DNA from: Methanospirillum sp.
Lineage (GTDB): Archaea > Halobacteriota > Methanomicrobia > Methanomicrobiales > Methanospirillaceae
Direction: 5' to 3'
Assembly (NCBI GenBank): GCA_039679395.1
Contig: JBDKUZ010000007.1
Coordinates: 1 to 55,190, forward strand
Length of the DNA stretch: 55,190 nucleotides
Shown here: positions 8,411 to 51,257 of the stretch, one piece after another
Numbering within the stretch: position 1 is the stretch's first letter
Layout: each line of letters begins with the position of its first letter
Notes under the pieces: model-generated
Told to the model about the DNA's origin: nothing
The model's input: only the letters and a program-made list of their open reading frames with translations
Database searches by the model: none
Translations under genes and position numbers: made by a program

Positions 8411-8508
8411 CGCCCTTCCCCCGCATACGCACCATCAGAGGCGGGAGTCGCGCGCCATTCGGGCTGGGCTCGCCGCCACCGATCGTGGCCGGTGGTGTCG
8501 CGTGCCCG

Positions 8509-15013: not shown

Positions 15014-15330
15014 AATCATTTTATATTCTATAATAGGTATATAGAAAATAGCCATCAATTGCAAAAAGAACTTTATTTTGCCCTTTGCCGTGCACAGTTG
15101 CCGGGCAATAATTTATATCGACATCGGTGAATTTCCTCCGCGTCTGCCCTGATTATTGCAGTCTTCCGGCGTACCCCGGCATGTCATCGGATCAGCGTTC
15201 AGCAGGACAGTAAAGAGAGGCTTGGGACGGGTCTCAGGCCATCATGGATGAAGACTATGTGTCGGTCCATGGCGCGATTGAAATGGAAAGCAGACGGTGG
15301 AGGCGGAGCCTCATGCCGAGGAGAAGAGAT

Positions 15331-17070
15331 ATGGTTCAGCGTAGGTTCAAACAAACAGGCATCGTGTTTGCGCTGTTGATACTCTGCGGCGCCGCGCTCG
15401 TGAACCCCGCCCTGGGTGGGGCGATAGTCAATTGGGGAGACACAGGCTCATCGGTGCCGTCGGGCACCGATTTCACTGCCATTGCGGCCGATGGTTGGGA
15501 TGGCCTCGCGCTGCGTGCCGACGGGTCGCTCGTCCACTGGGGGGGTGATTACCCCGGAGGATCAGGTACGCCATCGGGCACCGATTTTACTGCCGTTGCG
15601 ATAGGAAGCGGTTATAGCCTCGCGCTGCGTGCCGATGGCTCAATCGTCGCATGGGGTGTGGATGACTACACTCACATAATATCGGATGCGCCGTCGGGCA
15701 CCGGGTTCACTGCGATTGCGGCCGGTTACCAGCATGCTCTCGCGCTGCGCGCCGACGGCTCGATCATCAGCTGGGGTGCCGATGGTTGGGGCCAGGTATC
15801 GCAGACACCGACTGATTCCGGATATATTGCCATAGATGGCGGATGCCATCAAAGCCTCGCGCTGCGTGCCGATGGCTCGATCGTCAGCTGGGGCGAGGAT
15901 TACTACGGCCAAGTGTCGGACACACCGACGGGCACCGGGTTCACTGCCATTGCATCCGGTTACGCTCATAATGTCGCGCTGCGTGCCGATGGCTCGATCG
16001 TCAGCTGGGGGTTCGATGTTGCGGGCCAAGTATCGCAGACGCCGACGGACGCTGGGTATATTGCCGTTTCGGCCGGCGGCCTCGGTATGCATAGCCTCGC
16101 GCTGCGTGCCGACGGCTCGATCGTCAGCTGGGGATCTGATAGGTTTGGCCAGGTATCGCAGACGCCGACAAACGTCGGGTTCACGGCCATCGCTGCTGGT
16201 GACGATGGCAACCTCGCGCTGCAATCCGATACCACGTCGCCCACGCTCACCGCCACGGTCCCCGCGAACGGTGCCACGAACGTCCCGGTGAGCACGGGGA
16301 TCACGGGCACGTGGAGCGAGCCCGTCACGGTCTATCCGCCGCGCATCGCGGTGACAACAGCGGGTGGAACGGAGATCGCCTACCTCGGCACGTGGGATGC
16401 GACCGGTTTCGCCGTCACGCCGAACGATCCGTTGCCGAAGGAAACGGTCATCACCGTCAGCGTGAAGGGAGTAACCGACCTCGCAGGGCACCTGCAGGAC
16501 CCCAATCCATCCACCTGGTCGTTCACGACAGCGGCCAACCAGCGGCCGGTGGCGAGCCTGACGGCCGTTCCGTCCAAGGACCTGGCGCCGCTGGCGGTCA
16601 CGTTCTCGACCGCCGGAACGGGAGATAGCGACGGCGGCATCAGCACCTGGGCGCTGGCCATCACCCAGCTGGGGGTCTCCGCGACCGGGTCGGGCACTCC
16701 GCCGGGCACCTTCGACTACACCTTCACCGAGCCGGGCACGTACACTGCCACTCTGACCGTGACGGACACGGACGGCGCGACGGCGACCGCAACCGTGGAC
16801 GTCGTCGCTCAGACGCTCATGGAACACGTCGCCGACCTGAAACCGGTGATCCGTCAGATCCCCATGCTGTCGCTTGACATTCAGACGGGGCTGTTCGACA
16901 AGCTGGACCAGGCAGAACTCAGCCTGAACAGTGGCAGCGACAAAGCGGCCGTTAGCCAACTGACCGCATTCGTCAACCAGGTGAAGGGGCTGCAGAAAGC
17001 GAAAAAGCTGACTGCCGCTCAGGCCACGGCGCTTATCACCGAGGCACAGGAGATCATCGCGGCGATCTAA
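15331..17070 (+). CDS. secreted RCC1-repeat beta-propeller protein with Big_5/SbsA-type Ig domain, PKD domain and helical tail
   Basis: This is the internal start MVQRRFKQTGIVFALLILCGAALV of ORF 15244..17070. It has seven ALRADGS(I/L)V(S/H/A)WG blades, then TSPTLTATVPANGATNVP.. (Ig-like), then LAVTFSTAGTGDSDG..YTATLTVTDTDGATATATVDV (PKD). The C-terminal helical AAVSQLTAFVNQVKGLQKAKKLTAAQA segment is tentatively FIMAH-like. Confidence 0.85.
   Translation: MVQRRFKQTGIVFALLILCGAALVNPALGGAIVNWGDTGSSVPSGTDFTAIAADGWDGLALRADGSLVHWGGDYPGGSGTPSGTDFTAVAIGSGYSLALRADGSIVAWGVDDYTHIISDAPSGTGFTAIAAGYQHALALRADGSIISWGADGWGQVSQTPTDSGYIAIDGGCHQSLALRADGSIVSWGEDYYGQVSDTPTGTGFTAIASGYAHNVALRADGSIVSWGFDVAGQVSQTPTDAGYIAVSAGGLGMHSLALRADGSIVSWGSDRFGQVSQTPTNVGFTAIAAGDDGNLALQSDTTSPTLTATVPANGATNVPVSTGITGTWSEPVTVYPPRIAVTTAGGTEIAYLGTWDATGFAVTPNDPLPKETVITVSVKGVTDLAGHLQDPNPSTWSFTTAANQRPVASLTAVPSKDLAPLAVTFSTAGTGDSDGGISTWALAITQLGVSATGSGTPPGTFDYTFTEPGTYTATLTVTDTDGATATATVDVVAQTLMEHVADLKPVIRQIPMLSLDIQTGLFDKLDQAELSLNSGSDKAAVSQLTAFVNQVKGLQKAKKLTAAQATALITEAQEIIAAI
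15418..16234 (+). repeat. seven tandem ~150-nt coding repeats (RCC1 blades) with near-identical DNA cores
   Basis: ctcgcgctgcgtgccgatggctcgatcgtcagctgggg recurs almost unchanged. This explains the long in-phase antisense ORFs 15640..17160 and 15966..16328. Confidence 0.8.
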
Positions 17071-23185: not shown

Positions 23186-24478
23186 CTATTTTTCCCGCCA
23201 GCCCGGCAGGCGCAGGCGGGGGTCCATCCGGCGGACGTCGCGAAGCAGGAGCAGGGCCAGGAAGTCCGAGCCGAGCAGGAAGAGGGTGTACAGACCGATC
23301 AGCCGGACCGGGTCCACGCGGTACAGCCGCACCTCCGCGAGCAGGGAGGTCGCACGGTCGATCCGCCGGAGCCGGTGACGGGGCTCGCTCGTCCGTACAA
23401 GGAACCGGAGGGCGCGCTGCTCCCGCTCGAGGGCCCGCGCGCTCAGGGCGAGGACGGGCCGCGCGATGAGACGGCTCAGCCACCGGTGGAAGACCTGCAT
23501 GATCACGAGCTGCGAGGCGAGCAGGATCAGGACATAGACGTCGAAGCGGACGGCCTGGAGCTCGGTGAGCGGCACGATGCGGTCGACGGTCCAGCCCGGG
23601 AGCAGGAGCGCGATCACCAGCAGGACCACGACCAGGAAGACGATCGCCCCGAGGGCGACACCTCGGGTCAAAAGCGGGAGACCTCGCCGTCGTCCGCGCA
23701 ACCGCTCCACCAGCATGGCCGCGAACTCCGCCGAGTACGGCCGGAGGAGGTAGACCTGCAGGTAGTAGAGGATGATCCCGAGCGACTGCACGACCACGAG
23801 GAGCGCCGTGAGATCCGCGAGGCGATTGAGGACGAAGCCCGCGAGGACGGCAAAGAGGATGTCGACCGAGAAGATCGCAAGAAACCCGGCGGTCATCGAG
23901 ACGGCGCCGAGGAAGAAGACGTTCCACGCCACCGCGACGAGCCGTTTCTTGAACCGGAGGAGCCGGGCCTCCCGCACCGAGCGGACGAGGTTGCGGGGCG
24001 CCTGCGGCGCGGCGTCCGTCGTCGATCCGCGGTGCAGCAGCACCAAGGCGACGGCGCGGACGAGCGGCAGAAGGGGATAGAACATGTAGAAGTAGAGGCT
24101 CGCAACGATCCAGAGCAGCATGTAGCCCTCGCCGAACCGGACCAGGGCGTACAGGTTCACGCCAACGGCCAGGGCAAGGACGAGGTATCCGGCCGCGCCG
24201 ATCCGATCGCGTTCGACACGGAGGGCGGTGGCTCGGACCTGCGCCAGCTCCGCGTCCACGTCCCGGCGGAGACGGGCGATGACGGAACCCGTCCCCAGTC
24301 GTTCTCCGTCCTCCTGTGATCGGACCGTGACTGCACCACTCCATCCGTCGTCCGGCGGTGCCGCCGTGCAATCGGTAATCGCAGATGGGGCGCGCAGGAA
24401 TAAGAAACCACTTGAAACACCGAAGGTTCCAAAAGCACGAACGCCCTGATCCCCGGAGGGGTGATTTGACGGACCCAC
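23186..24478 (-). CDS. multi-pass membrane protein, unknown function (true start probably internal)
   Basis: ORF 23186..24478. At least 7 hydrophobic segments are separated by Arg-rich loops. The first ~90 codons overlap the divergent TauE gene and look non-coding. Confidence 0.6.
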   Translation of the reverse strand: MGPSNHPSGDQGVRAFGTFGVSSGFLFLRAPSAITDCTAAPPDDGWSGAVTVRSQEDGERLGTGSVIARLRRDVDAELAQVRATALRVERDRIGAAGYLVLALAVGVNLYALVRFGEGYMLLWIVASLYFYMFYPLLPLVRAVALVLLHRGSTTDAAPQAPRNLVRSVREARLLRFKKRLVAVAWNVFFLGAVSMTAGFLAIFSVDILFAVLAGFVLNRLADLTALLVVVQSLGIILYYLQVYLLRPYSAEFAAMLVERLRGRRRGLPLLTRGVALGAIVFLVVVLLVIALLLPGWTVDRIVPLTELQAVRFDVYVLILLASQLVIMQVFHRWLSRLIARPVLALSARALEREQRALRFLVRTSEPRHRLRRIDRATSLLAEVRLYRVDPVRLIGLYTLFLLGSDFLALLLLRDVRRMDPRLRLPGWREK

Positions 24479-28373: not shown

Positions 28374-31300
28374 TCAGCCGAGCTCGACCTCGACCTCGTG
28401 CGGCCGCTGGTCGTTGACCAGGTGGACCGCGTGGTCCTGCTGCTCGACCCCGTCGACCACGACCGACCGGACGCCGCACGCGAGCGTGCTTGAGCGGATC
28501 GTGCAGCGATACACCGTCTCCTTGAACCGGTACCGGAGCACGAACCGGTCCCACCCCGGCGGCAGGCAGGGGGCGAAGCGGAGGGTGTCCACGTCGAACC
28601 GCAACCCGATCAGCGATTCGAGCAGCAGCTGGTACGACCAACCGGCCGCGCCCGTCATCCATGTCCAGCCGCCGCGTCCGACGTGCGGCTCGACCCCGTA
28701 GACGTCGGCCGCGATTACGTACGGCTCGACGCGGTAGGTCGCGATCGCATCTCGGCTCTGCCCGTGATGGATGGGGTTGATGAGGTCGAAGAGCCGCCAG
28801 GCCAGGTCACGGTCGCCCAACGCCGCGTGGGCCATGATCGTCCAGATCGCCGCATGGGTGTACTGGCCCCCGTTCTCGCGGACGCCGGGAACGTAGCCCT
28901 GGATGTACCCCGGCGACGGAACCGCGTGGTCGAACGGCGGGGTGAGCAGTTTGATCAGGCCCTCGTCGTACCGGACCAGTTGCCGGTCGACCGCGTCCAT
29001 GGCCGATCGGGCACGCGCTGTTCCGGCCGCGCCGGAGAGTACGGACCACGACTGGGCGATCGCGTCGATCCGGCACTCCTCGTTCTCGGCCGAACCGAGC
29101 GGCGTCCCGTCGTCGAAGTAGGCGCGGCGATACCACTCGCCGTCCCACCCGGCCTTCTCCAGGTTCGCCGCGAGGCGCGAGGCCTCGGCCACGCAGCGCT
29201 CGGCAAAGGCCTCGTCCCCACGCGCCCTCGCCACGCCCGAGAACTGGAGCAGGACCGTGTAGAGGAAGAACCCGAGCCAGACCGACTCGCCCCGGCCCTG
29301 GATCCCGACCATGTTCATCCCGTCATTCCAGTCGCCCGAGCCCATCAGCGGCAGGCCGTGGGCGCCGAAGCGGAGGCCGTACTCGATCGCCCGGACGCAG
29401 TGCTCGTAGAGTGTCCCCTGCTGCTCCGAGATGGTCGGCAGGTCGTAGTAGGACTCCTCGTCCGGCTTGAGCTGCCGCCCCTCGAGGTAGCGAACGCGTT
29501 CGGAGAGGACCCCCGTGTCCCGGGTCGAGAGGACGTACCGGCAGAGCGTGTAGGGCAGCCAGAGGTAGTCGTCGGAGCAGCGCGTCCGCACCCCACGGTC
29601 GGACGGCGGGTGCCACCAGTGCTGGACGTCGCCCTCGACGAACTGGTGGCCGGCCGAGAGCAGGAGGTGCTGCCGGATCAGCCGGGGCTCGGCGTGGAGC
29701 AGGGCCAGCACGTCCTGGAGCTGGTCGCGGAAGCCGAACGCCCCGCCCGACTGGTAGTACCCCGAACGCCCCCAGAGGCGCGAGGAGATCACCTGGTAGA
29801 GGAGCCAGCCGTTGACCAGGAGGTCCACGGATCGGTCGGGGGTCTCGATCGCGACCGAGGAGAGGGTCCAGTCCCAGTACCGCCGGACGGACTCGAGCGA
29901 GGCGCGGGCCGGAGCCACGCCCCGGTGCCGCTGGACCAAGGCCTTCGCCTCGTCCGCGTCCCGGCCGACGCCGAGCATGAAGACGACGTCGAGATCCTGG
30001 CCGTCCGCGAGCTCGAGGGGGACCTGGAGCGCGGCGCACGGGTCGAGCGCAGCGCCCACCCGGCCGGAGAGCCGGACCCGCTCCATGGCCGCGGGCCGTG
30101 CGAGCGTCCCGTTGCGTCCCACGAACTCGTGCCGGTCGCCCGTCGCCGTCCGGTTCAGTTCATTCACGTCGAAGAAGGCCACACGGTCGGGAAACTCGGT
30201 GTTGTACGAGTTGCGGGCAAGGATGGCCCCGGTCAGCGGGTCCATCTCCGTCACCACCTGCATCGCCGTCGCGGCGCGGAGCTGCCCGAGCACCCACTCG
30301 ACGTACCCGGTCACGGTGACCGACCGCGTCCGGCCTGAGCGGTTCCGGACCCGGACCTGCCAGAACTTGACAGGGGCGTCGACCGCGACATGGACGGTCA
30401 TGGTGGCAAAGAGACCGTCCTGGGCGTGCTCGAAGACCGAGTAGCCGAACCCGTGCCGGGTCAGGTACGTCCCCGGCCCGCGCGCCGGCAGGGGAGCGAG
30501 GGACCAGAACGCGCCCGTCTCCTCGTCCCGCAGGTAGAAGGCCTCCCCAGCCCGGTCCGTCACCGGGTCGTTCCACCAGGGGGTGAGCCGGAACTCGTGC
30601 GCGTTCTCGGACCAGGAGTATCCGCCGCCGCTCTCGGAGACGATCGAGCCGAAGGACGGGTTCGCGAGAACGTTGACCCACGGCGCAGGCGTGAACTGGC
30701 CGGGCCGGTTCTCGATCACGTACTCGCGCCCGTCCTTGGAGAAACCGCCGATCCCGTTGTAGTAATCGAGCGCCTCGCCGCCGGACGGGGTCTCGGTCGA
30801 GGTCGACGGGCGCGGACGCGTCGGCACGAGCCTCGGTATCTGCGGGTCGATCCACCGCACCCGCTCGACCTGCTCGGCGAGGGGGCCGTCGCGATCGGCC
30901 AGGATCACCCGGGCCAGGGCCTGCATCAGGACCCGGTCCTCCTCCGGGATCTGGTCGAGCCGCCGGACGAAGACCCCGCCGGGCCTATCGATCAGCTGGG
31001 GGTCGGGACCGAGGCTGGTCTGGCGGATCAGCTCGTCCGTCAGATCTTGCCGGTATCCCGAGATGTCCTCGTTCCAGAAAAGCAGGTCCGTGATCAGCCC
31101 CTTCCGGCGCCAGTACGCGTGTGCCTGGATCATCTGCCGGACCAGCCCGACCCGGGCCTTCTCGGAGACCCGGACCAGCACGAGCGGGTAGTCGCCCGAG
31201 ATCCCGTAGCCCCAGAGCCCGCTCTGGCCGCGCCGGTTCCGCGCGATGACGTCGGGCGGCGCGCGGCGGGCCGGGTTCGGGTAGATGATGGCCGATGCGA

Positions 31301-34300
31301 GCCGGGCGAAGATCTGCGCGTCCGCCTCGGTCGCGTTGAGCTGGCGGAGCATCACCTGCGTGTGCGTCCAGGCGAGTTCGGTCACGCGGTCGCCCATGTA
31401 TCGGTCCTGGTACTTCTCGACGAGCCCGAGTGCGTGGTCGCGGTTCTCGCCGACGCCGAGGTAGACGTGGACGGTCACCGTCTCCTGTGGCTGTATCAGG
31501 ACCGTGCGCCGCACGGCCACGATCGGGTCGAGGACCGAGCCCGCCGTGTCCGAGAGGGAGGACGAGTCGACCATCGCCACCGGGTTCGCGAGCGACCGCC
31601 CCCGGCCGATGAACCGCGACCGGTCGGTCTCGAACGAGGTCTCCCGGACAGGGACGCCATCCACGACCATGGTATGGATGAGCCAGGGGGGGTGCTCGCC
31701 CGAGGAGCGCGGGCGGCGTGTCGCGAGGATCGCGTTCCGGTCGGGGAGGAGCTCGGTCGTTACGAAGAGGTTCGAGAAGGCCGGGTGGGCCGCGTCGTGC
31801 CCGAGGGGGGCGATCACGACCTCGGCGTAGCTCGTCAGCTCGATCGTGCGCGGGCGCCAGGAGCGGTTCGTGATCCGGACGCGCCTGAGCTCGACGTCGT
31901 CCTCGGGCGAGACCATGCACTCGGTGTGGATGTCGAGCTCGTCGTCGCGCCGCCGGAACTCGGCCCGGGCCTGCTGGAAGATCGCCTCGTACTTTTCGGC
32001 CGGCTGGAGCGTGGGCTGGTAGCAGGTCGACCAGAAGCGCCCGCTCTCGACATCGCGGATATAGCAGAAGACGCCGTAGCCGTCGGAGACGGGGTCCTCG
32101 CGCCAGCGCGTCACCTCGAGGTCGCGCCAGCGCGAGTACCCGGCCCCGGCATTGTTGACCATCACGTGGTACCGGCCGTTCGAGAGGAGGTGGACCTCGG
32201 GCCGGGCCAGATCCGGCGTCGAGAAGATCCGCATCATGGACTCGCCCTCGGCGCCGCGCCGGACCTGGCCGTCCATGCGGATCGCGTGGGGATAGAACGG
32301 GGTCACCTTCGGCACCCGCTCCTGGAGCAGCAGGTCGGTGGCGCGGATCTCGGGCACGCCCAGGAACCGCCGCTGCATGGGCCGATCGGCGAGCACAGCG
32401 AGGAGCGAGAGAAACGACATCCCCAGGTGGTGGGACATGAACGACCGGACGACGGCGACCTCCTGGCCGCGCGCCAGCCGCGACGGCGTGTAGTCGGCGG
32501 CCTCGAAGAAGCCGTACCGCCCCGCGAAGCCGACGGTCTCCATGGTCTGCAGGTTGCTGGTCGCCTCGGACGGAAGGACCAGCAGGGCGAGCGCGGTCGC
32601 GTACGGCGCGACCACCAGGTCCTCGCCGAGGCCCCGCTTGTACCCGAGCCCGGGGACACCGAAGGCCCGGTACTGGTAGTTCAGGTTGGCGTCGGTCAGG
32701 TTGTACACCGACTCGGAGATCCCCCAAGGCACGCCACGCTGCTTGCCGTACTCAATCTGCCGCCGCACGGCCGCGCGGCAGGTCTGGTCGAGGAGAGTCT
32801 CGGGGTAGCTCGGCATCACCAGCAGGGGCATCAGGTACTCGAACATCGAGCCCGACCACGAGAGGAGGAGCGGGCCGGCTCCGCTCGAGGTGAGCTGGCG
32901 GCCGAGCGCGAACCAGTGGGCCTGCGGGAGCACGCCGTCGGCGATCCCGACGAACGAGGCGAGGCGCGCCTCGGAGGCGAGCAGGTCGTAGAACGAGGTG
33001 TCCCGCCGGAGCTCGGAGACGTTGTACCCGATCGCGAGCAGATCCCTCGCGGGGTCGAAGAGGAAGTCCGTGTCGACATCGATGAAGCCCGTCGCGTGGG
33101 CGCCGACCCGCTCGTACAGGTCGAGCAGGCGCCCGGCGCCGGCGGCCGCGCTCCGCAGCCGCTCCCTCAGTCCCATCAGGGCCGCGCCCTCGTCGTTTCC
33201 GGACGCCATCATCCGCGTGAGGAGGCGGTCGATAGCGGGCAGGAGATCAGCGTGGAGCTCCCGGACCCCGATCGGGCTGGGGGCTTCGCCGTCGCAGGCC
33301 GCGAGCGCAGCCTGGACCACGGCCGCATCCTCGGGTCCGGCCGCCGCGACGCGGTCCCAGAACGCGCGGTCGCGCGGGATCTCGGCCCACCAGCCGATGA
33401 GCTCGCGGACGTACTCGTCGAGGTTGTGGACCTCGACCTCGAGCGCCTGCGCCCACCATCGGACCTCGTCGTCGGCGTTCGACCGGAGGTCCCCCGCGAT
33501 CTGCGCGATTGCAGTTGCCGCGTCGGCCAGGACTGCATGCCGCTCCGCGAATGTCGGGGCCGGGACGGCCAGCAGCGCTTGGAGAGACGCGATCCGCGCC
33601 GCGATACCGGGGGAGACGTACGAGCTCTCGTCCCGGTCGACGTCGGTCCGCGCCGCGGCGAGCGCCAGCTCGCGGGCCGTGTCCGCGAGGCCGTTGAGCG
33701 CGGCGGGTGGAAGAACGGGCGCGTACCCGAGCTCGGCCATGCCGGCCCTGAGCGGGAGGAGGAGACCGATCAGGTTGCCCGAGTCCACGGTCGAGACATA
33801 GTGCGGCGCGAGCGGGGCGAGGGTGACCGTGTCGTACCAGTTGTAGAGGTGCCCGCGGAATCGCTCGAGCCGCTCCAAGGTCTCGAAGGACTGTTCGAGC
33901 CGCTCGGCGCAGCGCCGCGGGGTGATGTACCCGAGGTCCGCGGCGGCGAGCGTGGAGAGGAGGGCGAGGCCGATATCGGTCGGCGAGGTGCGGTGCGCGA
34001 TCCGCTCGACCGGGGCCTCCTGGTAATTGTCGGGCGGCAGCCAGTTCTCCTCCGGCCCGACGAAGACCTCGAAGAAGCGCCACGTCCGCCGCGCGACCGA
34101 GCGGAGGAACCGGAGCTCGCTCGGGTCCAGGACCGGGACGGGCTCGGCCAGGGGTCGGCTCAGGTACCATGCCACCGCGGGCGAGGCGACCCAGAGGCCG
34201 ATGATCGGGAGGGCCGCCGCCAGCGCCTCGGGCCGGGCGAGGCCGATCGCGAGGCCGGAGACCGCCCCCGCCGCCAGCGCCGGCCACATTCGCCGGTAGT

Positions 34301-37160
34301 GGCCCGCGAGGTCCGGCGCGGTCCGGCCGGCGTCGCGCGACGTGGTCCACTCGAGGAGGCGGCGGCCCCGGACAAGGCGCGAGAGCGTCCGACCGACCGC
34401 GTCAATCGCGACGGCCGCCTCGTACGGGAGGAGGATGAAGAGGAAGACCGGCTGCGCGAACGAACGCGGCAGCGACCGAGCCGCGTCGAGTAGGTGGAGG
34501 CGGAGGCCCTGGTCCCGCGGCTTCTGGACGAGCCGGTAGAGGAAGCCGATGATCGGCGGAGCGAAGACGAGGGCCGCGACGGCCGCCGTCCACCCGATCG
34601 GGTTCGGGAGGAGGAGCCACGCGATCAGGAGCAGGGCCAGCTCGGCCGGTGCTACCAGGCTGCGCCGGAGGTTGTCCAGGACCTTCCAGCGCGAGAGGAG
34701 TGAGAGCGTGTTCCGCCGTCGTTCGTTGCCGGGGGCCGGGACCGTCGGCAGGGCCCAGGCCCCGACCTGCCAGTCGCCGCGGATCCAGCGGTGGCGGCGC
34801 GCGACGTCGGCGAGGTACCGCAGGGGGTAGTCCTCGAAGAGCGTGACGTCGGTCACGAGCGCCACCCGGGCGTACGAGCCCTCGATCAGGTCGTGGGAGA
34901 GGACGCGGTTCTCGGGGAGCTGCTCCCCCAGGGTCGCGCCGAACGCCTCGAGGTCGTACAGCCCCTTGCCGATGAACGAGGCCTCCTTGAAGGTGTCCTG
35001 GTAGACATCCGAGACCGCGCGTGTGTACGGATCGATGCCGGGCTCGCCGCCGAAGACCCGGACGTACCACGACCGGGCAGAGTCGGTCAGGGTCAGGCCG
35101 ATCCGCGGCTGGAGCACGCCGTAACCGGCCACCACGCGCCCGAGGACCGGGTCCACCACGGGCCGGTTGAGCGGGTGCGCGGCTGTCCCGACGAGCTTCT
35201 TCGCCTCGTCGCGGGGCAGCTCGGTGTCGGCGTCGAGGGTGATGACGTACCGCGTCCCTTCGAGGGTCGCGAGATCGCCGACGATCACGGCGAAGGGGTC
35301 GGTCTCTCCGTGGATCAGCAGCCGGTTCAGGGCCTCGATCGCGCCGCGCTTCCGCTCATATCCCATGAACCGCCCCTCGCGCGGGTTCCACTGCCGGGGC
35401 CGGTGCAGGAGCAGGAACGGACTCCGCCCCCCCTCGGCCACGTACCGGGAGTTCAGCTCCTCCGTGCCCGCCACGGCCCGGGCGATCGTCTCCGCGTCCT
35501 GCGGCGCGACCTCGCTCTCGGCGGCCGGCAGGTCCGAGAGGAGGGCGAACGAGAGCTGGGGGTCGCGGTTGCCGAGGTACCGCACCTCCAGCATCTCGAG
35601 CAGCCGGTCCACGTCGTCGGGCGTCGAGATCACGGTCGGGACCACCACAAGGGTCCGGCACTCGAGCGGGATCCCGTCGTCGAAGTCGAGCCGCGGCAGG
35701 ATCTTCGGCTTGGCGATCAGCATCGCGACCCAGTTGACGAGTGAGACTGCGGTCTGGCTCGCGGCCAGGAGAAGGACCGGGACGAAGAGCGCGAGCACCG
35801 CCAGCCCGACGCCCGCCATGGCGGCCGAGACGCCCCCGGCGAGCGTGATCAGGCCGGCGATCGCCGCGATCCCGCCGAGGTAGAACGGCAGGGGGGCCTG
35901 CCGCCCTATCCGCCTGAACCGCTCCGCGTTCGGCGGTTCGAAACGGACCGTGTGCTGGAGCTCGGGAAGCCCCCGGTCGATCAGGAAGTACCCGACGTGA
36001 GCCGAACGGTCGGCGCCGCCGAGCCGCATGCGCCTATCCACCGCGAGCTCCATGGCCCGCCGCGCCACTTCCTCCTCCGAGAGAGGGGCGTGCCGGGCCA
36101 GGCGCTCGACTACGTGCCTGTACCGGTCGCGGGTCGCGAAGTCCATGGCCGCGTACGGGTCCTGCGGGTTCGACCGCAGCACACTCTCCACGACCGAGAG
36201 TCGCTCGACGAAGACGCGCCAGTCGATCCCGTCGAGGGTCCTAAGCGAGGTGATCGAGTTGCCGATCGAGACCTGGTCCGCTGCCTGCGCCCGGGTCTCC
36301 ATCTGGACCATCTGCTCGATGGTCAGGCTCATCTCGGAGAGCCGCTGCTCGATCCAGGTCAGGGCCAGGGTCAGGACCGGCGAGCGACCTCGGAGCTGCC
36401 GCGCCAGCTCGGCCACGAAGGCGCTGGTCATGGGCGGGTCCGAGCGGGCCATCTCGGCCACGACCAGGATCATACTCTTCGGGTCCTGCTCGGCCACCTC
36501 GATCATCCGGTCGGCCCAGACCGAGGCGTTGTCCGAGTCGACCCTGTTTGCGCCGATCCGGGTCGAGACCCGGCGCAGGTTCTCGATCAGGGCCAGCCGG
36601 AGCATGATCGGGACGGCCCAGAGCTCGCCGAGCTGGAGCGGCGCGACCGTCTGGTATGCTTCGACGAACGCGGAGAGGACGTCGAGGTCGATCCGCCCGT
36701 CGTTGTGCGCGATCAGCTCGCGGGCGATGAAGTAGACGCGGGGGTACCCGGCGAGCGGGCCGTTCTCGAGGCGCGGGAGCTTCCGGCTGTACCCGAGCGG
36801 GAGGTGGCGGCGGGCCGTCCGGACATGCTCCTCGACCAGGTAAAAGTTGTCGAGGAGCCACTCGCCCGCGGGCGCGATCCGGCGATTCTTCTCGAGCGCG
36901 GCCGTGATGAGCGTGAAGGTCTCGACCAGGATGGTCTCATTCTCGGCGAGACGCGGGAGAAGACGGTCCTCGCCGCCACTCATATCCACACCGTACCAGT
37001 CGGCCATCTCCACGGCATGGGCCGAGAGCTGGTCCGCCGAGAGGAGCTCGCTCCGGAGGGGCTGGACGTCCTTCGGTCTGGCCCCTGCGGTACTCACATC
37101 CGTCACGCGCTCACGAAGGCGGGTCACGTCCCGCCGCAGCGACTCGATGCCGTCCTTCAC
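28374..37160 (-). CDS. cyclic beta-1,2-glucan synthase-like giant enzyme (membrane GT84 glycosyltransferase + central glucan-processing region + C-terminal GH94 phosphorylase), 2928 aa
   Basis: ORF 28374..37160. The N-terminal region reads [35 protein letters not shown] helices precede a GT-A domain (VVVPTVI...[21 protein letters not shown]...[10 protein letters not shown]). The mid region reads WGISESVYN...[17 protein letters not shown]. The C-terminus reads [12 protein letters not shown]...[20 protein letters not shown]...SGDWNDGMN, as in GH94 cellobiose/glucan phosphorylases. Confidence 0.9.
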
Positions 37161-37304
37161 CCGACCGTCCTCCCGGGCTCCCGGGCGCTGCAGAAGTGTC
37201 TGCTTTCCGCCCTATTCGCTCTACCGACGCTTCTAGCCTTCGCTGCACGGATGCGGGGTGGCACCCTTAAATAGTATCCGATTCATCGAGAACGGGATAG
37301 CGTT

Positions 37305-38207
<903 letters not shown>

Positions 38208-40152: not shown

Positions 40153-42729
40153 TTACGCGGTCACTCTGTACGGCCGCATCATCTCGTTGTCCTCGTGGTC
40201 GAGGATGTGGCAGTGCCAGACGTACCCGGGCCCCTGCGTCGCATCGAAGAGGTACGACCCCGAGCCGTCGGTCGGGGCGAACCGGGCCCGGATGCGCGTG
40301 ACCTCGCCGGGGTTCATCTGGATCGTGTCCTTCCAGCCCGCCTCGTTCGCGTCGGGCGGCATCGGGTCGCCGGTCAAGAACGGCGTCGGGTCGAGGGTCC
40401 GCGGCTCCGACGTCCAGGGCGGCTGGCCGTCGCCCATCATCGCGAGGTCCGCGTTCAGCTTCGTCCAGTTGGACGCGTACGACTCCGTGTCCAGCGCCTG
40501 CCGGCTCACGAGCTGGAACTGGACCAGGTGCAGGTGGATCGGGTGCACGTCCATTGTCGGGTTGACGATCGCCCACTCCTCGGTCGAGCCGACCTTCGGG
40601 TCCTCGGTGATCGGCGCGGACCATTTCTGGCCGTTGAGCAAAAGCTCGAGCGGGCCGTTCGCGCCCGTGGACTCCCAGAGCACGAGCGTCCGGGTCAGAT
40701 CGGGCGTGAGCGTCGGGATCGCGTTGAGCGTCGCCGGCAGTGCCGCCGCAACGGCCCCCTTCGTCGCTGTCACGGTGAACTGCATGACCTGGCCGGTCGT
40801 CTCCTGGTTCGCCGGGTCGCCGGACGGGAACGGGGTCGGCGCCGAGTTGGTCAGCCGGACCTTCGTGCCCGCGGGCAGGCCCGAGAAGTCGACCAGGAAC
40901 ACCATGCGCTCGCCCGGCGCGATGGTCGTCTCGTTCATGGTGACTGCCTCCGGGAGGTAGCCGCCGTCGCTCATGACCTGGGTGAAGGGCAGGGCGGTCC
41001 CGTTCGTGCCCTGGACCTCGAGCCGCATGGTGTAGAACCGGGCGTTCGAGCCGTCGTAGACCTCGAAGCGGTACTGGCCGCGGTCCACGTCCAGGTTCGG
41101 CCAGACCTGGCCGTTGACCATGATCGTGTTGCCGAAGTTCTCGGGGTTCCAGTACGGGTGGATGTCGGGGTTGATCCCGTCGGCCGGGAACCAGAAGGAC
41201 CCGTTCGCCATGAACGTCCTGTCCTGGATGATCAGCGGCACCTCGTACTTGCCCGAGGGGAGGAGCTTCTCGATCGGATCGGCCGGGTCCTTGATCAGGT
41301 ACCCGCCGGCCAGGCCCGAGGCCACATTCAGCCGGGTAATCCCGAGCGCGTGGTCGTGGTACCAGAGCGGCGCGGCCTGCTGCTCGTTCGGGTACCGGTA
41401 GACCGCGCTGTTGTTGCCGGCATCCGAAAGCGAGTCGTACGCCTTTCCGCGCAGGCCGTTCCAGGTCCACCAGGCCTCGGGGTTGCCATCGAACTGCGAC
41501 GGCACCTCGCCGCCGTGGAGGTGCGGGACGAGCGGGACCGGGTACTGGGCCTCGGGGTAGCCGGGCGGGAAGGGCTCGAAGGTCCGATTCATCGCCATCT
41601 CGCCCGAGTGGGGCATGCCGCCCATGCCGAGGCCGTTCGGGTCGGCCCAGTGGATGGTCGGGTCGACCGGGAGGCGGTTCGGCCTGGTGATGTTGTTCGT
41701 CCAGGTCACGACGCTCGGGATCCCGCGGGTCACGACGAAGGCCGCGCTCGGGCTGTAGTAGAAGTTCGCGGTCTTCTCCCCGGTGACGAGGTCGGTCACG
41801 TTGCCGCCGTAGCCCCACATCGTGGTCTTCGGCATGCCCGGCGGGAGCACCTGCTGCTCGAACTCGGCCATGGTGATGTGGTAGGCGTGGGCCGTGCCGT
41901 TGCCCGAGGGATCGTCGATGACCGTCGGGACGTAGATCTTCTGCGTCTCGAGCTGGTTGACATACTTCGGGATCGTCATCGGGTCGAGCAGCTCGGGGGC
42001 GGTGCCGTTCGAGGTCGGCGTCGGGGTGACGTTCCCCGTGGGCGTGGGGGTCGGGGAGGCGGCGAGAGCGAAGGTCACGAGGTCGAGGTTCTGGGCGTCG
42101 CGGTAGAACTCGAGCCGGAGGGTGTGCCGGCCGGCGGGCAGGGCGACCGAGGCCGTCGCGTTTTCGTATATGTCGAAGGAGCCCGTGCTCGGGACCTTCG
42201 CCTGCGCCTTAAGGACGCCGTCGACCCAGACCCAGATCTCGCGATCGTCCCAGGGGCTCGACGCGCGGAAGGTCGCGGCGTACGTCCCGGACTCGGCGAC
42301 ATCGATCGCGTAGTCGAGCCACTCGGAGGACTTGACGTACGCGACGGCGAAGCCGCTCGCGCCGGTCTCGATGTCGACGTCGTCGTGGCGATACGCGCCG
42401 CCCTCGTTGCCGGGGGTGCGGTCGTACCAGCCGAAGCCCTGGCCGCCCACGTTATAGTCCTCGGCCTGGATGGTGCCGGGGACGGCAGCGGCCGCACCGG
42501 GGGTCGCCGTGGTCGGGGCCGGGGACGCGACGGAGCTCTCCCCCATCCCGCCGGACGAGGGGGGCATGGTCATGGTCGCGGCGGCGTGCAGCGCGGCCCC
42601 GATGGGGTCGGCTGCGGCCGCCTGCGCCTCGGCGAGCGTGGTCCTGGCGAGGGTCGGCGCCGCGAGGACCGAGATCAGGATGACGACCAAGACGAGGGCC
42701 GCCACCAGCTTTTGGCATCCGGGTTGCAT
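40153..42729 (-). CDS. secreted CBM6-like carbohydrate-binding module fused to a three-domain multicopper oxidase (CotA/bilirubin-oxidase type)
   Basis: ORF 40153..42729. It has a signal peptide (LVAALVLVVILISVLAAPTLA). The CBM6-like module reads IQAEDYNVGGQGFGWYD...RLEFYRDAQNLDLVTF. All four copper motifs are present: HLHGG, WYHDHA, HPIHLHLVQFQ, HCHILDHEDNEMM. Confidence 0.9.
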   Translation of the reverse strand: MQPGCQKLVAALVLVVILISVLAAPTLARTTLAEAQAAAADPIGAALHAAATMTMPPSSGGMGESSVASPAPTTATPGAAAAVPGTIQAEDYNVGGQGFGWYDRTPGNEGGAYRHDDVDIETGASGFAVAYVKSSEWLDYAIDVAESGTYAATFRASSPWDDREIWVWVDGVLKAQAKVPSTGSFDIYENATASVALPAGRHTLRLEFYRDAQNLDLVTFALAASPTPTPTGNVTPTPTSNGTAPELLDPMTIPKYVNQLETQKIYVPTVIDDPSGNGTAHAYHITMAEFEQQVLPPGMPKTTMWGYGGNVTDLVTGEKTANFYYSPSAAFVVTRGIPSVVTWTNNITRPNRLPVDPTIHWADPNGLGMGGMPHSGEMAMNRTFEPFPPGYPEAQYPVPLVPHLHGGEVPSQFDGNPEAWWTWNGLRGKAYDSLSDAGNNSAVYRYPNEQQAAPLWYHDHALGITRLNVASGLAGGYLIKDPADPIEKLLPSGKYEVPLIIQDRTFMANGSFWFPADGINPDIHPYWNPENFGNTIMVNGQVWPNLDVDRGQYRFEVYDGSNARFYTMRLEVQGTNGTALPFTQVMSDGGYLPEAVTMNETTIAPGERMVFLVDFSGLPAGTKVRLTNSAPTPFPSGDPANQETTGQVMQFTVTATKGAVAAALPATLNAIPTLTPDLTRTLVLWESTGANGPLELLLNGQKWSAPITEDPKVGSTEEWAIVNPTMDVHPIHLHLVQFQLVSRQALDTESYASNWTKLNADLAMMGDGQPPWTSEPRTLDPTPFLTGDPMPPDANEAGWKDTIQMNPGEVTRIRARFAPTDGSGSYLFDATQGPGYVWHCHILDHEDNEMMRPYRVTA

Positions 42730-48333: not shown

Positions 48334-49260
48334 ATGAGAGCGATCGTGTACGAGAGATACGGGCCGCCGGAGGTCCTCCAGCTGAGAGAGGTGGAGAAAC
48401 CCGTTCCCGAAGACAACGAACTGCTGATAAAGATCCACGCGACCACCGCGGCCGCGGGGGACTGGCGTATGCGAAAGGCGGACCCGGTCACCGCGCGGCT
48501 GTACAACGGTCTCCTGCGGCCGAAACGAGTGACCGTACTGGGGTTCGAGCTGGCCGGCGAGGTCGAGGCGGTCGGCGGCCGGGTACGGCGGTTTAAGGCC
48601 GGCGACCGGGTCTACGCATTTGCCGGTCTCGGTTTCGGCGCGTATGCCGAGTATATCTGCATCGCGGAAGAAGGAACCCTGAAAAGCGGGCTCGTCGCGA
48701 TACAACCGGCCAACCTGTCGTACGAACAGGCCGCCGCCGTCCCTGTCGGCGGGCTCACGGCGCTGCGGTTCCTGAAGAAAGGCGGCATCCGGGGCGGGCA
48801 GAAGGTCCTCATCTACGGTGCCTCAGGGAGTGTCGGCACATATGCGGTCCAGCTCGCCCGGCATTTCGGGGCGGACGTCACCGGGGTGTGCAGCACCGCG
48901 AACCTGGCGCTGGTGCGATCGCTGGGGGCCGGGACGGTCATCGATTACACCCGGGAAGACTTCACGAAGACGGGCCGGACATACGACCTCGTCTTCGACG
49001 CCGTCGGCAGGACGTCGCGCTGGCAGTGCAGGCACCTGCTCGGGAAAGGCGGGACCTTTCTCTCCACGAAAGGGTCGGCGACCGAAGATGTCGGGGACCT
49101 GGACTACCTCAGGGACCTGATCGAGGCCGGCGAGATACGGCCGGTCATCGACAGGTGCTATCCGCTGGAGCAGATCGTCGAGGCCCACCGGCACGTCGAA
49201 GCGGGGCACAAGCGAGGAAATGTCGTGATCACCGTGGCACGGGACGAGAAGGAGAGGTGA
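48334..49260 (+). CDS. medium-chain dehydrogenase/reductase (quinone oxidoreductase / zinc-ADH-like), NAD(P)-dependent
   Basis: ORF 48334..49260. It reads [41 protein letters not shown], and the C-terminal HKRGNVVI. Confidence 0.9.
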
Positions 49261-49265
49261 AAAGA

Positions 49266-49787
49266 ATGGAAAAGGACGAGATCGAAACCGGAAGATCGGC
49301 GGCGTTGCGATCGCTCGTGGTCGTCTGCTCGTACCATCACGGGAATACGGAGAAGATCGCCCGCGCCATCGCGGAGGTGCTCGGCGCGCCGGTAACGACC
49401 CCGCAGCAGGCGACGCCCGAGAAGATCGCGGAGTGCGACCTGGTCGGTTTCGGCTCGGGGATCTACAGCGCGACAGTCCATCCATCCCTCCTCGACCTCG
49501 CCGACCGGCTTTCGCGGGCCGAGAACAAAAAAGCCTTCCTCTTCTCGACCTACGGGGCCCCCGCCGTCGCTGCGGGCGGGGATTTTGTTGCAAAGAACCA
49601 CTCGCGGATCCGGGAGAAGCTCCAGGCGAAGGGGTACGCGGTCATCGGCGAGTTCGGGTGCGCGGGGTGGAACACGAACAGTTTTCTGAAGTATTTCGGG
49701 GGGCTGAACAAAGGCCGGCCCGGCGCCGAAGACCTCGGACACGCGGAAGCGTTTGCCAGGGATATGATGGAGAAAGCCCGAGGATAG
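49266..49787 (+). CDS. flavodoxin-family protein
   Basis: This is the internal start MEKDEIETGRSAALRSLVVVCSYHHGNTEKIA of track ORF 48888..49787. It also reads LVGFGSGIY and FLFSTYG. Confidence 0.85.
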   Translation: MEKDEIETGRSAALRSLVVVCSYHHGNTEKIARAIAEVLGAPVTTPQQATPEKIAECDLVGFGSGIYSATVHPSLLDLADRLSRAENKKAFLFSTYGAPAVAAGGDFVAKNHSRIREKLQAKGYAVIGEFGCAGWNTNSFLKYFGGLNKGRPGAEDLGHAEAFARDMMEKARG

Positions 49788-50278
49788 GACGCGGAGCATG
49801 GGCGGACAAAGATACCGGGACCCGGCAATATCGGAGGTGAAATGACCGGCAAAACTGCAGGCGGATCGTTCGGCAAGCCGGTGACAGAACTCCGGAATGC
49901 ACTGCACTTTATCGTACCCATTATTTTTTCCTGGATAGGGTTTTCGAAAAAAATGCAAACCGCGATCAATTCATAAAACAGAAACGTTCCGGAATTGAAA
50001 TCGCCATTCGACGTACGTACGAATAGAATTTTCATCAGAAATAACCATTCCGAGATCCGGTCATCCCGATGTCCAACGACAGGATCTGAGGGTTAAAATC
50101 CCTCCCTCCAGACACCCACTCGAATAGCACCCACCTCGTCCGGTCCTCTAATATCCGCGACTCGATTCTGTTCTTTGTCATTCGTGGTGGTTCATACATC
50201 CGGGGTAGAGGATCGAGAGAGACCTAGAGGCTCGATTGAACAGAAAACAGATCGACCTTTATAAGATCGACTTTCACG

Positions 50279-50485
50279 ATGTCAGTTTACACCACAGTTA
50301 CCATCCCGGTTGCGGTAAGCGTTTTCCCCGATGAGATCTATGCGGCCCCGCGGAGCTGGACCGAGAAAGCCTACCCCAAGCTGATCCACTATAACCGACT
50401 CCCGAAAGGCGGACACTTCGCGGCGTGGGAACAGCCGGAACTGTTCGCCGCCGAGATCCGGGCGGCGTTCAGATCACTGCGCTAA
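50279..50485 (+). pseudogene. C-terminal ~65-aa fragment of an epoxide hydrolase (alpha/beta hydrolase)
   Basis: ORF 50279..50485. IPVAVSVFPDEIYAAPRSWTEKAYPKLIHYNRLPKGGHFAAWEQPELFAAEIRAAFRSLR matches the conserved tail (catalytic His in GGHFAA) of microbial epoxide hydrolases. The ~320 upstream residues are missing and there are stops just upstream. Confidence 0.6.
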
Positions 50486-50587
50486 TGTATCGGGTCCATC
50501 ATTTTTCGAGTCCCACGACGCAGCATCAAATTCATTTTAGGGTTGGTGTCATCGTAACCACCGGCTCCTACCATTCGGGAGGGGTTC

Positions 50588-50770
50588 ATGTCCCGACTTT
50601 TCTGCCAACGATGCCGCTGCACGAAGCTGTACCGACCGGGCACCGGGAAACGTCGCTGTTCACAATGTCGCTATGACTTCACTCCTCACCCACCCCCCTG
50701 TACCTGACGCGCGATCGATGGAAAGAGCTCATCACCTGGTTCCCCCCTGAACGGCGTGGCCGGACGACAT
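50588..50770 (+). mobile_element. frameshifted N-terminal zinc-ribbon fragment of an IS-type transposase (IS1595/IS1-like, tentative)
   Basis: ATG 50588 opens MSRLFCQRCRCTKLYRPGTGKRRCSQCRYDFTPHPPP and stops at 50705. After a C6 run, the +1 frame continues LYLTRDRWKELITWF. The CxxC..x16..CxxC head plus a following helical segment is typical of transposase N-termini. No DDE body is present. Confidence 0.4.
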
Positions 50771-51053
50771 CGCCGATGTCGATCCGGATCGCCCCGGTGC
50801 AGTCGAGGACAGAGAGCGACTCGTCCGCGGCGATCCGACCCCTCGGGCCGAAGTACATGACGACACCGGCGAAGTCGCGGCGCCGTTGCCATCGATCTCG
50901 TCGTACAGCCCGTCGGCGTTCGTCTCCGCCGGCAGGCAGGAACCCGCCGGGCAGGGCGCGCCGTCGGGATCGCGCCGAGGATCCCGGTCGTCCCGGACGC
51001 TCGTTCGATACCATTCCGAATTGCTGTCGGCCATTGTAGTCGCCGGCATACAT
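50679..51053 (-). pseudogene. frameshifted dockerin/EF-hand-like surface-protein tail
   Basis: Two minus frames (50732..51049 and 50679..51053) join as ...PAETNADGLYDEIDGNG / RRDFAGVVMYF....IAADESLSVLDCTGAIRIDIGDVV. This is a doubled DxNGNGxxDFxDVV motif. It has no N-terminal body and abuts the transposase fragment. Confidence 0.4.
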
Positions 51054-51257
51054 TTATTTTTAAATAAACCGATGGCAGAACGCCTCTACTCTGTGGGTCC
51101 TGACCATATCCGAAGCCGGAGGTGCTTCGTCTTCTACCGCGGATCGGGGGCGGGTGCGGATGCCCGAGCGGCAGCGAGATCGCCCCCTGTCGGCACCGCA
51201 TTCTGCGTGACGACCGCCGCCGAGGCCCGGGACGGGTGCTCGGCCAGGGAGAGATCC

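What the first reader, a model, noticed from the sequence alone, without database searches (positions are those of the whole stretch)
28374..37160. 8.8-kb gene for a cyclic beta-1,2-glucan synthase-like enzyme in a methanogen
This single 2928-aa ORF takes up 16 percent of the window. It shows the full bacterial Cgs/NdvB/ChvB layout. The N-terminal region is conserved. A membrane-embedded GT-A (GT84-type) domain has a DAD motif ([11 protein letters not shown]). A central glucan-processing region follows, then a C-terminal GH94 phosphorylase domain ([25 protein letters not shown]). In proteobacteria this enzyme makes periplasmic cyclic glucans for osmoadaptation and host interaction. I know of no characterised archaeal counterpart, and the cell-envelope context is completely different. 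No Cgt-type exporter or Cgm-type modifying gene is adjacent. The composition matches the host, so any transfer is not recent.
Basis: partly seen in the sequence, partly recalled or inferred. Interest (0 to 1): 0.65.

Follow-up and report, generated by a model that had tools for sequence, protein, structure and literature searches.

The report

Summary
Window 28374..37160 (minus strand) is one uninterrupted 2928-aa ORF with a GTG start and a GGAGG ribosome-binding site 8 nt upstream. It aligns end to end with the cryo-EM structure of Agrobacterium tumefaciens Cgs (8RF0, E=0, 2012 bits). All 18 residues shown by mutation or structure to matter are present. They cover the GT84 glycosyltransferase, the primer tyrosine, the GH189 cyclase and the GH94 phosphorylase. 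Six hydrophobic segments flank the GT domain, as in Cgs.

The host is a high-GC Methanomicrobiales archaeon. The flanking genes are archaeal, and the adjacent Mrp ATPase is 75% identical to the one next to the orthologous gene in cultured Methanosphaerula palustris.

The gene is not a one-off. About 57 full-length sequence clusters form a clade with 100% bootstrap support. Every named member is Methanomicrobiales: Methanosphaerula, Methanospirillum, Methanoplanus. Local gene order is conserved, and dN/dS against a 91% relative is 0.15. This points to an old, probably bacterial, acquisition followed by retention.

[quoted passage not shown] I found no paper on them. Where the glucan ends up and what it does in archaea remain unknown. 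No exporter lies nearby. This is a new member of a known kind, of moderate interest.

The parts
28374..37160 (-). [quoted passage not shown]
   Evidence: ORF list and translation. Full-length phmmer match to A. tumefaciens Cgs 8RF0/8RF9, E=0, 2012 bits. Colinear BLASTP alignments over aa ~1-2928 with 80 bacterial Cgs at 41-56% identity.
37169..37173 (-). Shine-Dalgarno-like GGAGG, 8 nt upstream of the GTG start
   Evidence: Read directly from the sequence. The same start is used in 90%-identical homologues.
35901..37160 (-). N-terminal scaffold domain (NTD), aa ~1-420
   Evidence: Aligns to residues 58 onwards of 8RF0. Domain definition from PMC10901819.
35715..35897 (-). Transmembrane helices 1-2 (hydrophobic stretch, aa 422-482)
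   Evidence: Kyte-Doolittle scan. Aligned to the corresponding hydrophobic stretch of 8RF0.
34761..35678 (-). GT84 glycosyltransferase domain, aa ~495-800. Key residues: D543, R603, D643-x-D645, primer Tyr Y712, catalytic base D757, R791-W792 and R794.
   Evidence: Residue-by-residue alignment to 8RF9/8RF0. Positions. All are invariant in the 57 archaeal-type and 131 comparison (bacterial or unlabelled) sequences, apart from one R-to-L exception at R794. Residue roles from PMC10901819.
34167..34664 (-). Transmembrane helices 3-6 (hydrophobic stretches aa 833-879, 901-923 and 978-998)
   Evidence: Kyte-Doolittle scan. A six-helix TM domain is described for Cgs in PMC10901819.
32265..34163 (-). 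Cyclase / beta-1,2-glucanotransferase domain (CY, GH189, GH144-like), aa ~1000-1632. Key residues: S1123, D1126, acid/base E1397, E1441, nucleophile E1483, H1577/H1578. Includes a variable helical insert at about aa 1180-1324.
   Evidence: Match to 8WY1 (T. italicus cyclization domain), E=7e-113 for this segment, and to 8RF0. Pfam PF10091. Residue roles from PMC10834661 and PMC10901819. Invariance and archaeal-specific indels.
28377..32264 (-). GH94-type phosphorylase half (GP, length control plus glucan-binding scaffold), aa ~1633-2928. Key residues: D2479 and catalytic acid D2613.
   Evidence: Pfam GH94 supersandwich (two stretches, 1e-171) and GH94 catalytic domain (4e-119). Alignment to 8RF9. 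Matches to cellobiose and chitobiose phosphorylases at about 1e-90. Invariance.

Best explanation

By homology to the A. tumefaciens enzyme, I infer the following. The protein is anchored by six membrane helices, with all catalytic domains in the cytoplasm. The GT84 domain glucosylates its own Tyr712 and extends a beta-1,2-glucan from UDP-glucose. The GH94 domain trims the chain length by phosphorolysis and acts as a glucan-binding scaffold. The GH189 domain releases the chain as a ring by intramolecular transglycosylation, using Glu1483 as nucleophile and Glu1397 as acid/base.

The gene was acquired once, most probably from bacteria, by an ancestor of part of the Methanomicrobiales. It has since been kept at a conserved chromosomal site under purifying selection.

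Shown here: homology, intact catalytic residues, archaeal host, a deep archaeal clade, conserved gene order, and purifying selection. Inferred only: the product, the direction of transfer, and the physiological role. My best guess for the role is adaptation to low-osmolarity freshwater or peat habitats and/or partner interaction, after export by an unlinked transporter.
For: The match to the solved Cgs structure is full-length (8RF0, E=0), and the cyclization domain matches 8WY1 at 2.5e-126.

All 18 functionally defined residues are conserved in the window protein. All 18 are invariant in the 57 archaeal-type sequences. In the 131 comparison sequences they are also invariant, apart from one R-to-L exception at R794 (residue roles).

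Six hydrophobic segments flank the GT domain. Pfam finds the GH94 and glucoamylase-like domains.

The archaeal setting is supported by the neighbours: CDC48, RadB, LarC, MinD-ferredoxin proteins, FmdE-like and Mrp. A 91%-identical, syntenic copy lies in the MAG 'Methanomicrobiales archaeon Chersky_702'.

The order Glu-synthase-like / Mrp / cgs / acyl-CoA ligase / aldehyde dehydrogenase / TauE / CDC48 recurs in independent assemblies L081 and L087. An Mrp gene also lies next to cgs in the complete genome of Methanosphaerula palustris (CP001338), and it is 75% identical to the window's Mrp.

In a full-length NJ tree of 188 sequences, the window and 56 other clusters form a clade with 200/200 bootstrap support. 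Every named member is Methanomicrobiales.

dN/dS against L004 is 0.15 over 2233 codons. GC3 is 0.93, like the neighbouring genes.
Against: No biochemical data exist for any archaeal homologue. I found none in the literature searches.

No Cgt/ChvA-type ABC exporter or Cgm/OpgC-type modifying gene was seen. This holds for the window and for the archaeal loci inspected. The fate of a cytoplasmically made glucan is therefore unexplained.

Pfam and NCBIfam do not call a GT domain.

The tree is neighbour-joining on corrected p-distances and is unrooted. Its archaeal sample was picked with an archaeal profile. Most clade members are unnamed metagenome proteins. An N-terminal-only tree gave only 60% support for archaeal monophyly.
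Confidence: 0.85

Rival explanations
1. The gene is bacterial DNA that entered an archaeal contig through mis-assembly or mis-binning, or it is a very recent transfer.
For: The family is overwhelmingly bacterial: 79 of the 80 best genome loci are bacterial. Some archaeal hits sit on short MAG contigs of 6-10 kb with uninformative flanks.
Against: The same gene sits in the same archaeal neighbourhood in at least three independent assemblies (L004, L081, L087). It is also in the finished genome of a cultured methanogen, M. palustris CP001338. GC3 of 0.93 matches the neighbours. The closest bacterial homologue is only 55-58% identical. The archaeal clade has 100% bootstrap support and internal distances up to 0.74.
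Confidence: 0.02
2. The protein is Cgs-like in sequence but works differently in archaea. It might make linear beta-1,2-glucan or a cytoplasmic storage or compatible-solute glucan that is never exported. Alternatively it might act mainly in glucan breakdown through its GH94 and GH189 domains.
For: No exporter gene is adjacent in any archaeal locus examined. All soluble domains of Cgs are cytoplasmic, and its TM domain forms no export channel (PMC10901819). Export in bacteria needs the separate transporter Cgt. A glycogen phosphorylase and an ADP-dependent sugar kinase lie within 10 kb of cgs in one Methanospirillum-type locus.
Against: The cyclase nucleophile, the acid/base residue and their supporting residues are invariant, as is the primer tyrosine. 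Together these argue for the complete synthase cycle ending in cyclisation. By a crude motif scan, adjacent exporters are also rare in bacterial cgs loci: 3 of about 89 loci. Their absence next to the gene therefore says little.
Confidence: 0.1
3. The gene is a decaying relic that no longer functions.
For: One relative (L081) shows the gene split into several ORFs.
Against: In L081 the neighbouring genes are split as well (AMP-ligase, aldehyde dehydrogenase). That points to indel errors in the assembly rather than gene decay. The window ORF is uninterrupted over 2928 codons. dN/dS is 0.15. All catalytic residues are invariant, and the 57 archaeal-type sequences range from 2780 to 2952 aa.
Confidence: 0.02

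Closest known systems
Agrobacterium tumefaciens Cgs (ChvB; PDB 8RF0/8RF9; Sedzicki et al. 2024, PMC10901819), and from general knowledge the Brucella abortus and Sinorhizobium NdvB orthologues
   Same: Same length class (2928 vs about 2830 aa) and the same order of domains: NTD, TM, GT84, TM, CY, GP. The match is E=0. Residues equivalent to D527, R586, D624/D626, Y694, D739, R773/W774, R776, S1101, D1104, E1300, D2393 and D2528 are all identical.
   Different: The host is an archaeon with no outer membrane. No chvA/ndvA-type exporter lies next to the gene. The helical insert of the CY domain, the dimerisation motif in A. tumefaciens, does not align (query aa ~1239-1360) and carries archaeal-clade-specific insertions of 3-13 residues.
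Thermoanaerobacter italicus CGS cyclization domain (GH189; PDB 8WY1; Tanaka et al. 2024, PMC10834661)
   Same: The domain matches at 2.5e-126. The acid/base E1356, E1400, the nucleophile E1442 and H1536/H1537 all have identical counterparts: E1397, E1441, E1483 and H1577/H1578.
   Different: Only the isolated domain of the bacterial enzyme was characterised. The archaeal domain is untested.
Uncharacterised orthologues in cultured Methanomicrobiales: Methanosphaerula palustris E1-9c (P0175, CP001338), Methanospirillum stamsii (P0159) and Methanoplanus endosymbiosus (P0165)
   Same: They are full-length (2922-2948 aa) and 54-61% identical to the window protein. They fall in the same 100%-supported clade. 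M. palustris shares the adjacent Mrp gene.
   Different: The window belongs to a separate, high-GC sub-clade of 15 clusters at 69-90% identity, known only from metagenomes and MAGs. The Methanospirillum-type loci and M. palustris have response-regulator or sensor-kinase genes directly upstream of cgs. The window does not.
GH94 phosphorylases (cellobiose/chitobiose phosphorylase, 1,2-beta-oligoglucan phosphorylase)
   Same: The C-terminal ~790 aa match at 1e-72 to 1e-90, with the catalytic Asp in GDWNDG conserved.
   Different: Those are soluble, stand-alone catabolic enzymes. Here the module is the C-terminal part of a membrane synthase.

Membership tests
[quoted passage not shown] | Single polypeptide of about 2800-3000 aa, colinear over NTD, GT84, CY and GH94 | tested here: met
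   phmmer against 8RF0 gives two stretches covering aa 67-1238 and 1361-2879, E=0. BLASTP shows colinear full-length alignments to 80 bacterial Cgs.
[quoted passage not shown] | GT84 (GT2-like) catalytic signature: UDP-binding Asp, DxD, catalytic base Asp, and the [QR]xxRW motif | tested here: met
   D543, D643-A-D645, D757 and R788-R-H-R791-W792 align to D527, D624/D626, D739 and R773/W774. They are invariant in all 188 sequences. Pfam and NCBIfam list no GT family for this protein.
[quoted passage not shown] | Autoglucosylated primer tyrosine in the IF1-homology loop (Y694 in A. tumefaciens) | tested here: met
   Y712 in GIDPY aligns to Y694 and is invariant in 188 sequences. Glucosylation itself was not tested.
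[quoted passage not shown] | Compact six-helix membrane anchor: two helices before the GT domain and four after it | tested here: met
   Hydropathy scan finds aa 422-482 (two helices), 833-879 (two), 901-923 and 978-998. No dedicated topology predictor or structure model was run.
[quoted passage not shown] | GH189 cyclase domain with a nucleophile Glu, an acid/base Glu and supporting Glu/His-His | tested here: met
   E1483, E1397, E1441 and H1577/H1578 align to TiCGS E1442, E1356, E1400 and H1536/H1537. All are invariant.
[quoted passage not shown] | C-terminal GH94 phosphorylase module with a catalytic Asp | tested here: met
   Pfam PF06165 (1e-171) and PF17167 (4e-119). D2613 and D2479 align to D2528 and D2393.
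[quoted passage not shown] | Product is cyclic beta-1,2-glucan made from UDP-glucose | not testable with these tools
   This needs an enzyme assay or glucan extraction. No archaeal data were found in the literature searches.
Bacterial cyclic-glucan system (Cgs + Cgt/ChvA/NdvA exporter, with or without Cgm succinyltransferase) | A dedicated ABC exporter (Cgt) and a modifying enzyme encoded in the genome, sometimes adjacent | tested here: inconclusive
   No ABC transporter or acyltransferase was found among the window ORFs scanned. A motif scan of the window also found none. None was found in archaeal loci L004 and L081-L089. The rest of the genome could not be searched. Adjacency is rare in bacterial loci too: 3 of about 89 by a crude scan.

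The most novel reading that the evidence does not exclude
Methanomicrobiales methanogens really synthesise cyclic beta-1,2-glucans. That would be the first such glucan in Archaea. They would place it outside the membrane, under the S-layer or sheath, by an as yet unidentified exporter. There it would serve as an osmoregulated-periplasmic-glucan analogue for life in dilute peat or freshwater, or as a partner-interaction factor. One carrier, Methanoplanus endosymbiosus, is a ciliate endosymbiont. The habitat and lifestyle statements come from general knowledge and were not tested here.
Probability: 0.35. Interest if true: 0.65.

Novelty: new member of a known kind. Interest (0 to 1): 0.45.

Why it matters
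Cyclic beta-1,2-glucans are known as bacterial envelope osmoprotectants and as host-interaction factors in Brucella, Agrobacterium and rhizobia. I found no archaeal example in the literature.

The complete four-activity enzyme is conserved, intact and under purifying selection across a clade of methanogens that includes cultivable type strains. The question [quoted passage not shown] can therefore be tested directly in Methanosphaerula palustris or Methanospirillum stamsii.

The case is also a clean example of an old transfer of a very large (8.8 kb) single-gene biosynthetic machine, probably from bacteria to archaea. It is not a new enzyme type, and the sequences are already labelled correctly in public databases.

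Tried and rejected
- The homology search with the full 2928-aa query failed internally. I repeated it with the N-terminal 1200 aa and with an archaeal profile.
- NCBIfam gave no hit at all. Pfam gave no GT-family hit.
- No tRNA or Rfam RNA in the window could help place the organism.
- An exact-sequence look-up of the window protein found no record, so the source genome could not be named.
- An NJ tree on the N-terminal 1040 columns with only six archaeal sequences gave weak support (60%) for archaeal monophyly. It was superseded by the full-length, 188-sequence tree.
- The sister group of the archaeal clade is unresolved (19% support), so no donor phylum can be named.
- The context of the nearest non-clade sequence, P0177, consists of BREX and CRISPR genes and is taxonomically uninformative.
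- Literature searches found nothing on archaeal Cgs. The terms were archaea or methanogens combined with cyclic glucan, NdvB, GT84 and GH94. The one exception is an uncommented table entry of GH94/GT84 genes in a Methanomicrobia bin (PMC3357426).
- The ABC-exporter scan used only Walker A and signature-motif regular expressions. It is crude.
- I rejected contamination or chimera, recent transfer, and pseudogene. The reasons are given under the rival explanations.


Full report
**Observation**

The ORF list shows one open reading frame at exactly 28374..37160 on the minus strand. It has 2928 codons and a GTG start.

It covers 15.9% of the window. Third-position GC is 0.93, within the range of the other ORFs that pass the same coding-composition filter (0.81-0.96).

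A GGAGG lies 8 nt upstream of the GTG. Homologues that are 90% identical start with the same residues and are 2929-2933 aa long. The start and the coordinates are therefore sound.

**What the protein is**

- Pfam finds two GH94 supersandwich stretches (1e-171), the GH94 catalytic domain (4e-119) and the glucoamylase-like family PF10091 (2e-14). It finds no glycosyltransferase family.
- NCBIfam finds nothing.
- A sequence search of the PDB is decisive. The protein matches the cryo-EM structures of A. tumefaciens Cgs (8RF0, 8RF9) at E=0 and 2012 bits. The two stretches together span aa 67-2879.
- It also matches the isolated cyclization domain of Thermoanaerobacter italicus CGS (8WY1) at 2.5e-126.
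- The only part that does not align to the A. tumefaciens enzyme is aa ~1239-1360. This lies in the helical insert of the cyclase domain, which that paper describes as a protruding dimerisation motif.

**Catalytic residues**

I took the functionally defined residues from Sedzicki et al. 2024 (PMC10901819) and Tanaka et al. 2024 (PMC10834661). I read them off residue-level alignments of three sub-segments and located them in the window protein. Every one is present.

| Domain | Residue in window protein | Equivalent residue and role |
|---|---|---|
| GT84 | D543 | D527, UDP binding |
| GT84 | R603 | R586 |
| GT84 | D643/D645 | D624/D626, DxD |
| GT84 | Y712 | Y694, autoglucosylated primer tyrosine |
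| GT84 | D757 | D739, catalytic base |
| GT84 | R791-W792 and R794 | R773-W774 and R776 |
| Cyclase | S1123, D1126 | S1101, D1104 |
| Cyclase | E1397 | A. tumefaciens E1300 = T. italicus E1356, acid/base |
| Cyclase | E1441 | T. italicus E1400 |
| Cyclase | E1483 | T. italicus E1442, nucleophile |
| Cyclase | H1577/H1578 | T. italicus H1536/H1537 |
| GH94 | D2479 | D2393 |
| GH94 | D2613 | D2528, catalytic acid |

In a 188-sequence full-length alignment, all 18 positions are invariant in the 57 archaeal-type sequences. In the 131 comparison sequences they are also invariant, apart from one R-to-L exception at R794.

A hydropathy scan finds six hydrophobic segments, two before and four after the GT domain. 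This matches the six-helix anchor of Cgs. By sequence, the protein is a canonical Cgs, not merely Cgs-like.

**The host**

- The genes around cgs are archaeal in character. They include a CDC48-type AAA ATPase, a RadB-size Rad51-family protein, LarC, MinD-type ATPases with inserted ferredoxin domains, an FmdE-like protein and Mrp/NBP35 ATPases.
- A scan of species-representative genomes returned one archaeal locus, L004, from 'Methanomicrobiales archaeon isolate Chersky_702'. It is 91% identical, and ORFs of the same sizes and orientation as the window's Mrp and glutamate-synthase-like genes lie upstream (299 and 529 aa).
- The Mrp gene next to cgs is 75% identical to the Mrp gene that lies two genes from the cgs orthologue in the complete genome of cultured Methanosphaerula palustris E1-9c (CP001338). 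It is 85% identical to the one in metagenomic contig L087.

I therefore accept 'a methanogen of the order Methanomicrobiales'. At about 67-72% GC, the lineage stands out against a 2012 Methanomicrobia metagenome bin at 54% GC. I could not name the genus.

**Distribution and evolution**

A profile built from six archaeal N-terminal sequences retrieved about 57 full-length clusters (mostly 2914-2952 aa; range 2780-2952) scoring 2196-2759 bits. A clear gap separates them from the next sequences, at 1982 bits or less, which where labelled are bacterial. The named ones are Methanosphaerula palustris, Methanospirillum stamsii, uncultured Methanospirillum, Methanospirillaceae and Methanoplanus endosymbiosus. 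[quoted passage not shown]

In a neighbour-joining tree of 188 full-length sequences (2820 columns, 200 bootstraps), these 57 form a clade with 100% support. It has three parts:

- a window sub-clade of 15 clusters (100% support, 69-90% identity to the window protein);
- a Methanosphaerula group;
- a Methanoplanus plus Methanospirillum group.

Distances inside the archaeal clade reach 0.74, against up to 1.22 among the non-clade sequences. The closest bacterial proteins are only 55-58% identical.

Gene order around cgs is conserved across the window, L004, L081 and L087, and partly in M. palustris. dN/dS between the window and L004 is 0.15 over 2233 codons.

Together these results indicate one old acquisition, followed by vertical retention under purifying selection.

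The direction, bacteria to archaea, is inferred only. It rests on the much wider bacterial diversity and on the restriction to a single archaeal order among named sequences. The tree is unrooted and the sister group is unresolved (19% support).

Caveats:

- The method is NJ, not maximum likelihood.
- The archaeal sample was chosen with an archaeal profile.
- Most clade members are unnamed. I checked three by context.

**Mechanism**

By homology, the enzyme should work as described for A. tumefaciens Cgs:

1. The GT84 domain autoglucosylates the loop tyrosine.
2. It elongates a beta-1,2 chain from UDP-glucose on the cytoplasmic face.
3. The GH94 module controls chain length by phosphorolysis.
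4. The GH189 domain cyclises the chain by transglycosylation.

In bacteria a separate ABC transporter, Cgt, exports the rings.

I found no ABC exporter or acyltransferase in the window. I found none within 10 kb of cgs, or as far as the shorter contigs extend, in any archaeal locus inspected.

This absence is not diagnostic. A crude motif scan found an adjacent ABC protein in only 3 of about 89 cgs loci overall.

The fate and role of the product in an archaeon remain open. My preferred guess is hypo-osmotic protection in dilute peat or freshwater habitats after export by an unlinked transporter. It is inference only.

**Comparison and novelty**

The protein meets every sequence-testable defining feature of the Cgs family. 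I file it as a member.

It differs from the characterised bacterial enzymes in three ways: its host domain, the lack of a linked exporter, and small clade-specific insertions in the variable helical insert of the cyclase domain.

My literature searches found only an uncommented table entry of GH94/GT84 genes in a Methanomicrobia bin from 2012.

The gene is nevertheless neither unique to this genome nor unannotated. It is in finished genomes of cultured methanogens and is labelled correctly in NCBI/UniProt.

The envelope argument is also softened. Homologues occur in records labelled Clostridia/Bacillota, Actinobacteria-type and Chloroflexi. From general knowledge these are mostly bacteria without an outer membrane.

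**Verdict**

The gene is real, intact and correctly interpreted. It is a new member of a known kind. Interest is moderate (0.45): the enzyme itself holds no surprise, but an unstudied and readily testable piece of archaeal glycobiology lies behind it.

Noticed in passing
window 40153-42729 (-): An 858-aa protein combines multicopper-oxidase domains (Cu-oxidase_2/_3) with a CBM6/CBM35 carbohydrate-binding module, 3 kb from cgs. An oxidase-type enzyme with a sugar-binding module is unexpected in a strict anaerobe.
   Followed up: no
window ~6000-9000 and ~49000-51000: Two stretches have markedly lower GC (0.575-0.60) than the ~0.70 of the rest of the window. They may be islands or intergenic-rich regions.
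   Followed up: no
window 442-5745: A cluster holds DUF134 (HTH), a NifX/NifB-like FeMo-cofactor-binding protein, two MinD-type ATPases with inserted 4Fe-4S ferredoxin domains and an Mrp/NBP35 ATPase. A second Mrp paralogue sits next to cgs at 37305-38207.
   Followed up: no
window 15244-17070 (+) and 50886-52928 (+): Two large surface-type proteins are present. One has RCC1 repeats plus Big_5, PKD and FIMAH domains. The other has a TIG/IPT domain.
   Followed up: no
window 23186-24478 (-): A 430-aa ORF with coding-like composition (GC3 0.83) lies between CDC48 and TauE and has no Pfam match.
   Followed up: no
L083 3522-5143; L088 6491-9357; L085 8384-9706: In Methanospirillum-type loci and in M. 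palustris, response-regulator or sensor-kinase genes sit directly upstream of cgs (PAS-HisKA_2 kinase, RR-GT4 fusion, RR-GAF). This hints at signal-controlled expression. The window has none.
   Followed up: partly
L082 and L084 (MAG GCA_028679455.1, Methanospirillum sp.): Two different N-terminal cgs fragments (P0004, P0074) lie on two contigs of one MAG. This suggests two paralogous copies in one Methanospirillum genome, or a mixed bin.
   Followed up: partly
L085 26638-28118 (M. palustris CP001338): KwaA/KwaB (Kiwa anti-phage defence) genes lie 8 kb downstream of cgs in M. palustris. The nearest non-clade homologue, P0177 (L090), sits between a BREX system and CRISPR cas genes.
   Followed up: no
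L081 (ENA contig_84196, 125 kb): cgs and several neighbours (AMP-ligase, aldehyde dehydrogenase) are split into fragments. This looks like indel errors of a long-read assembly rather than gene decay.
   Followed up: partly
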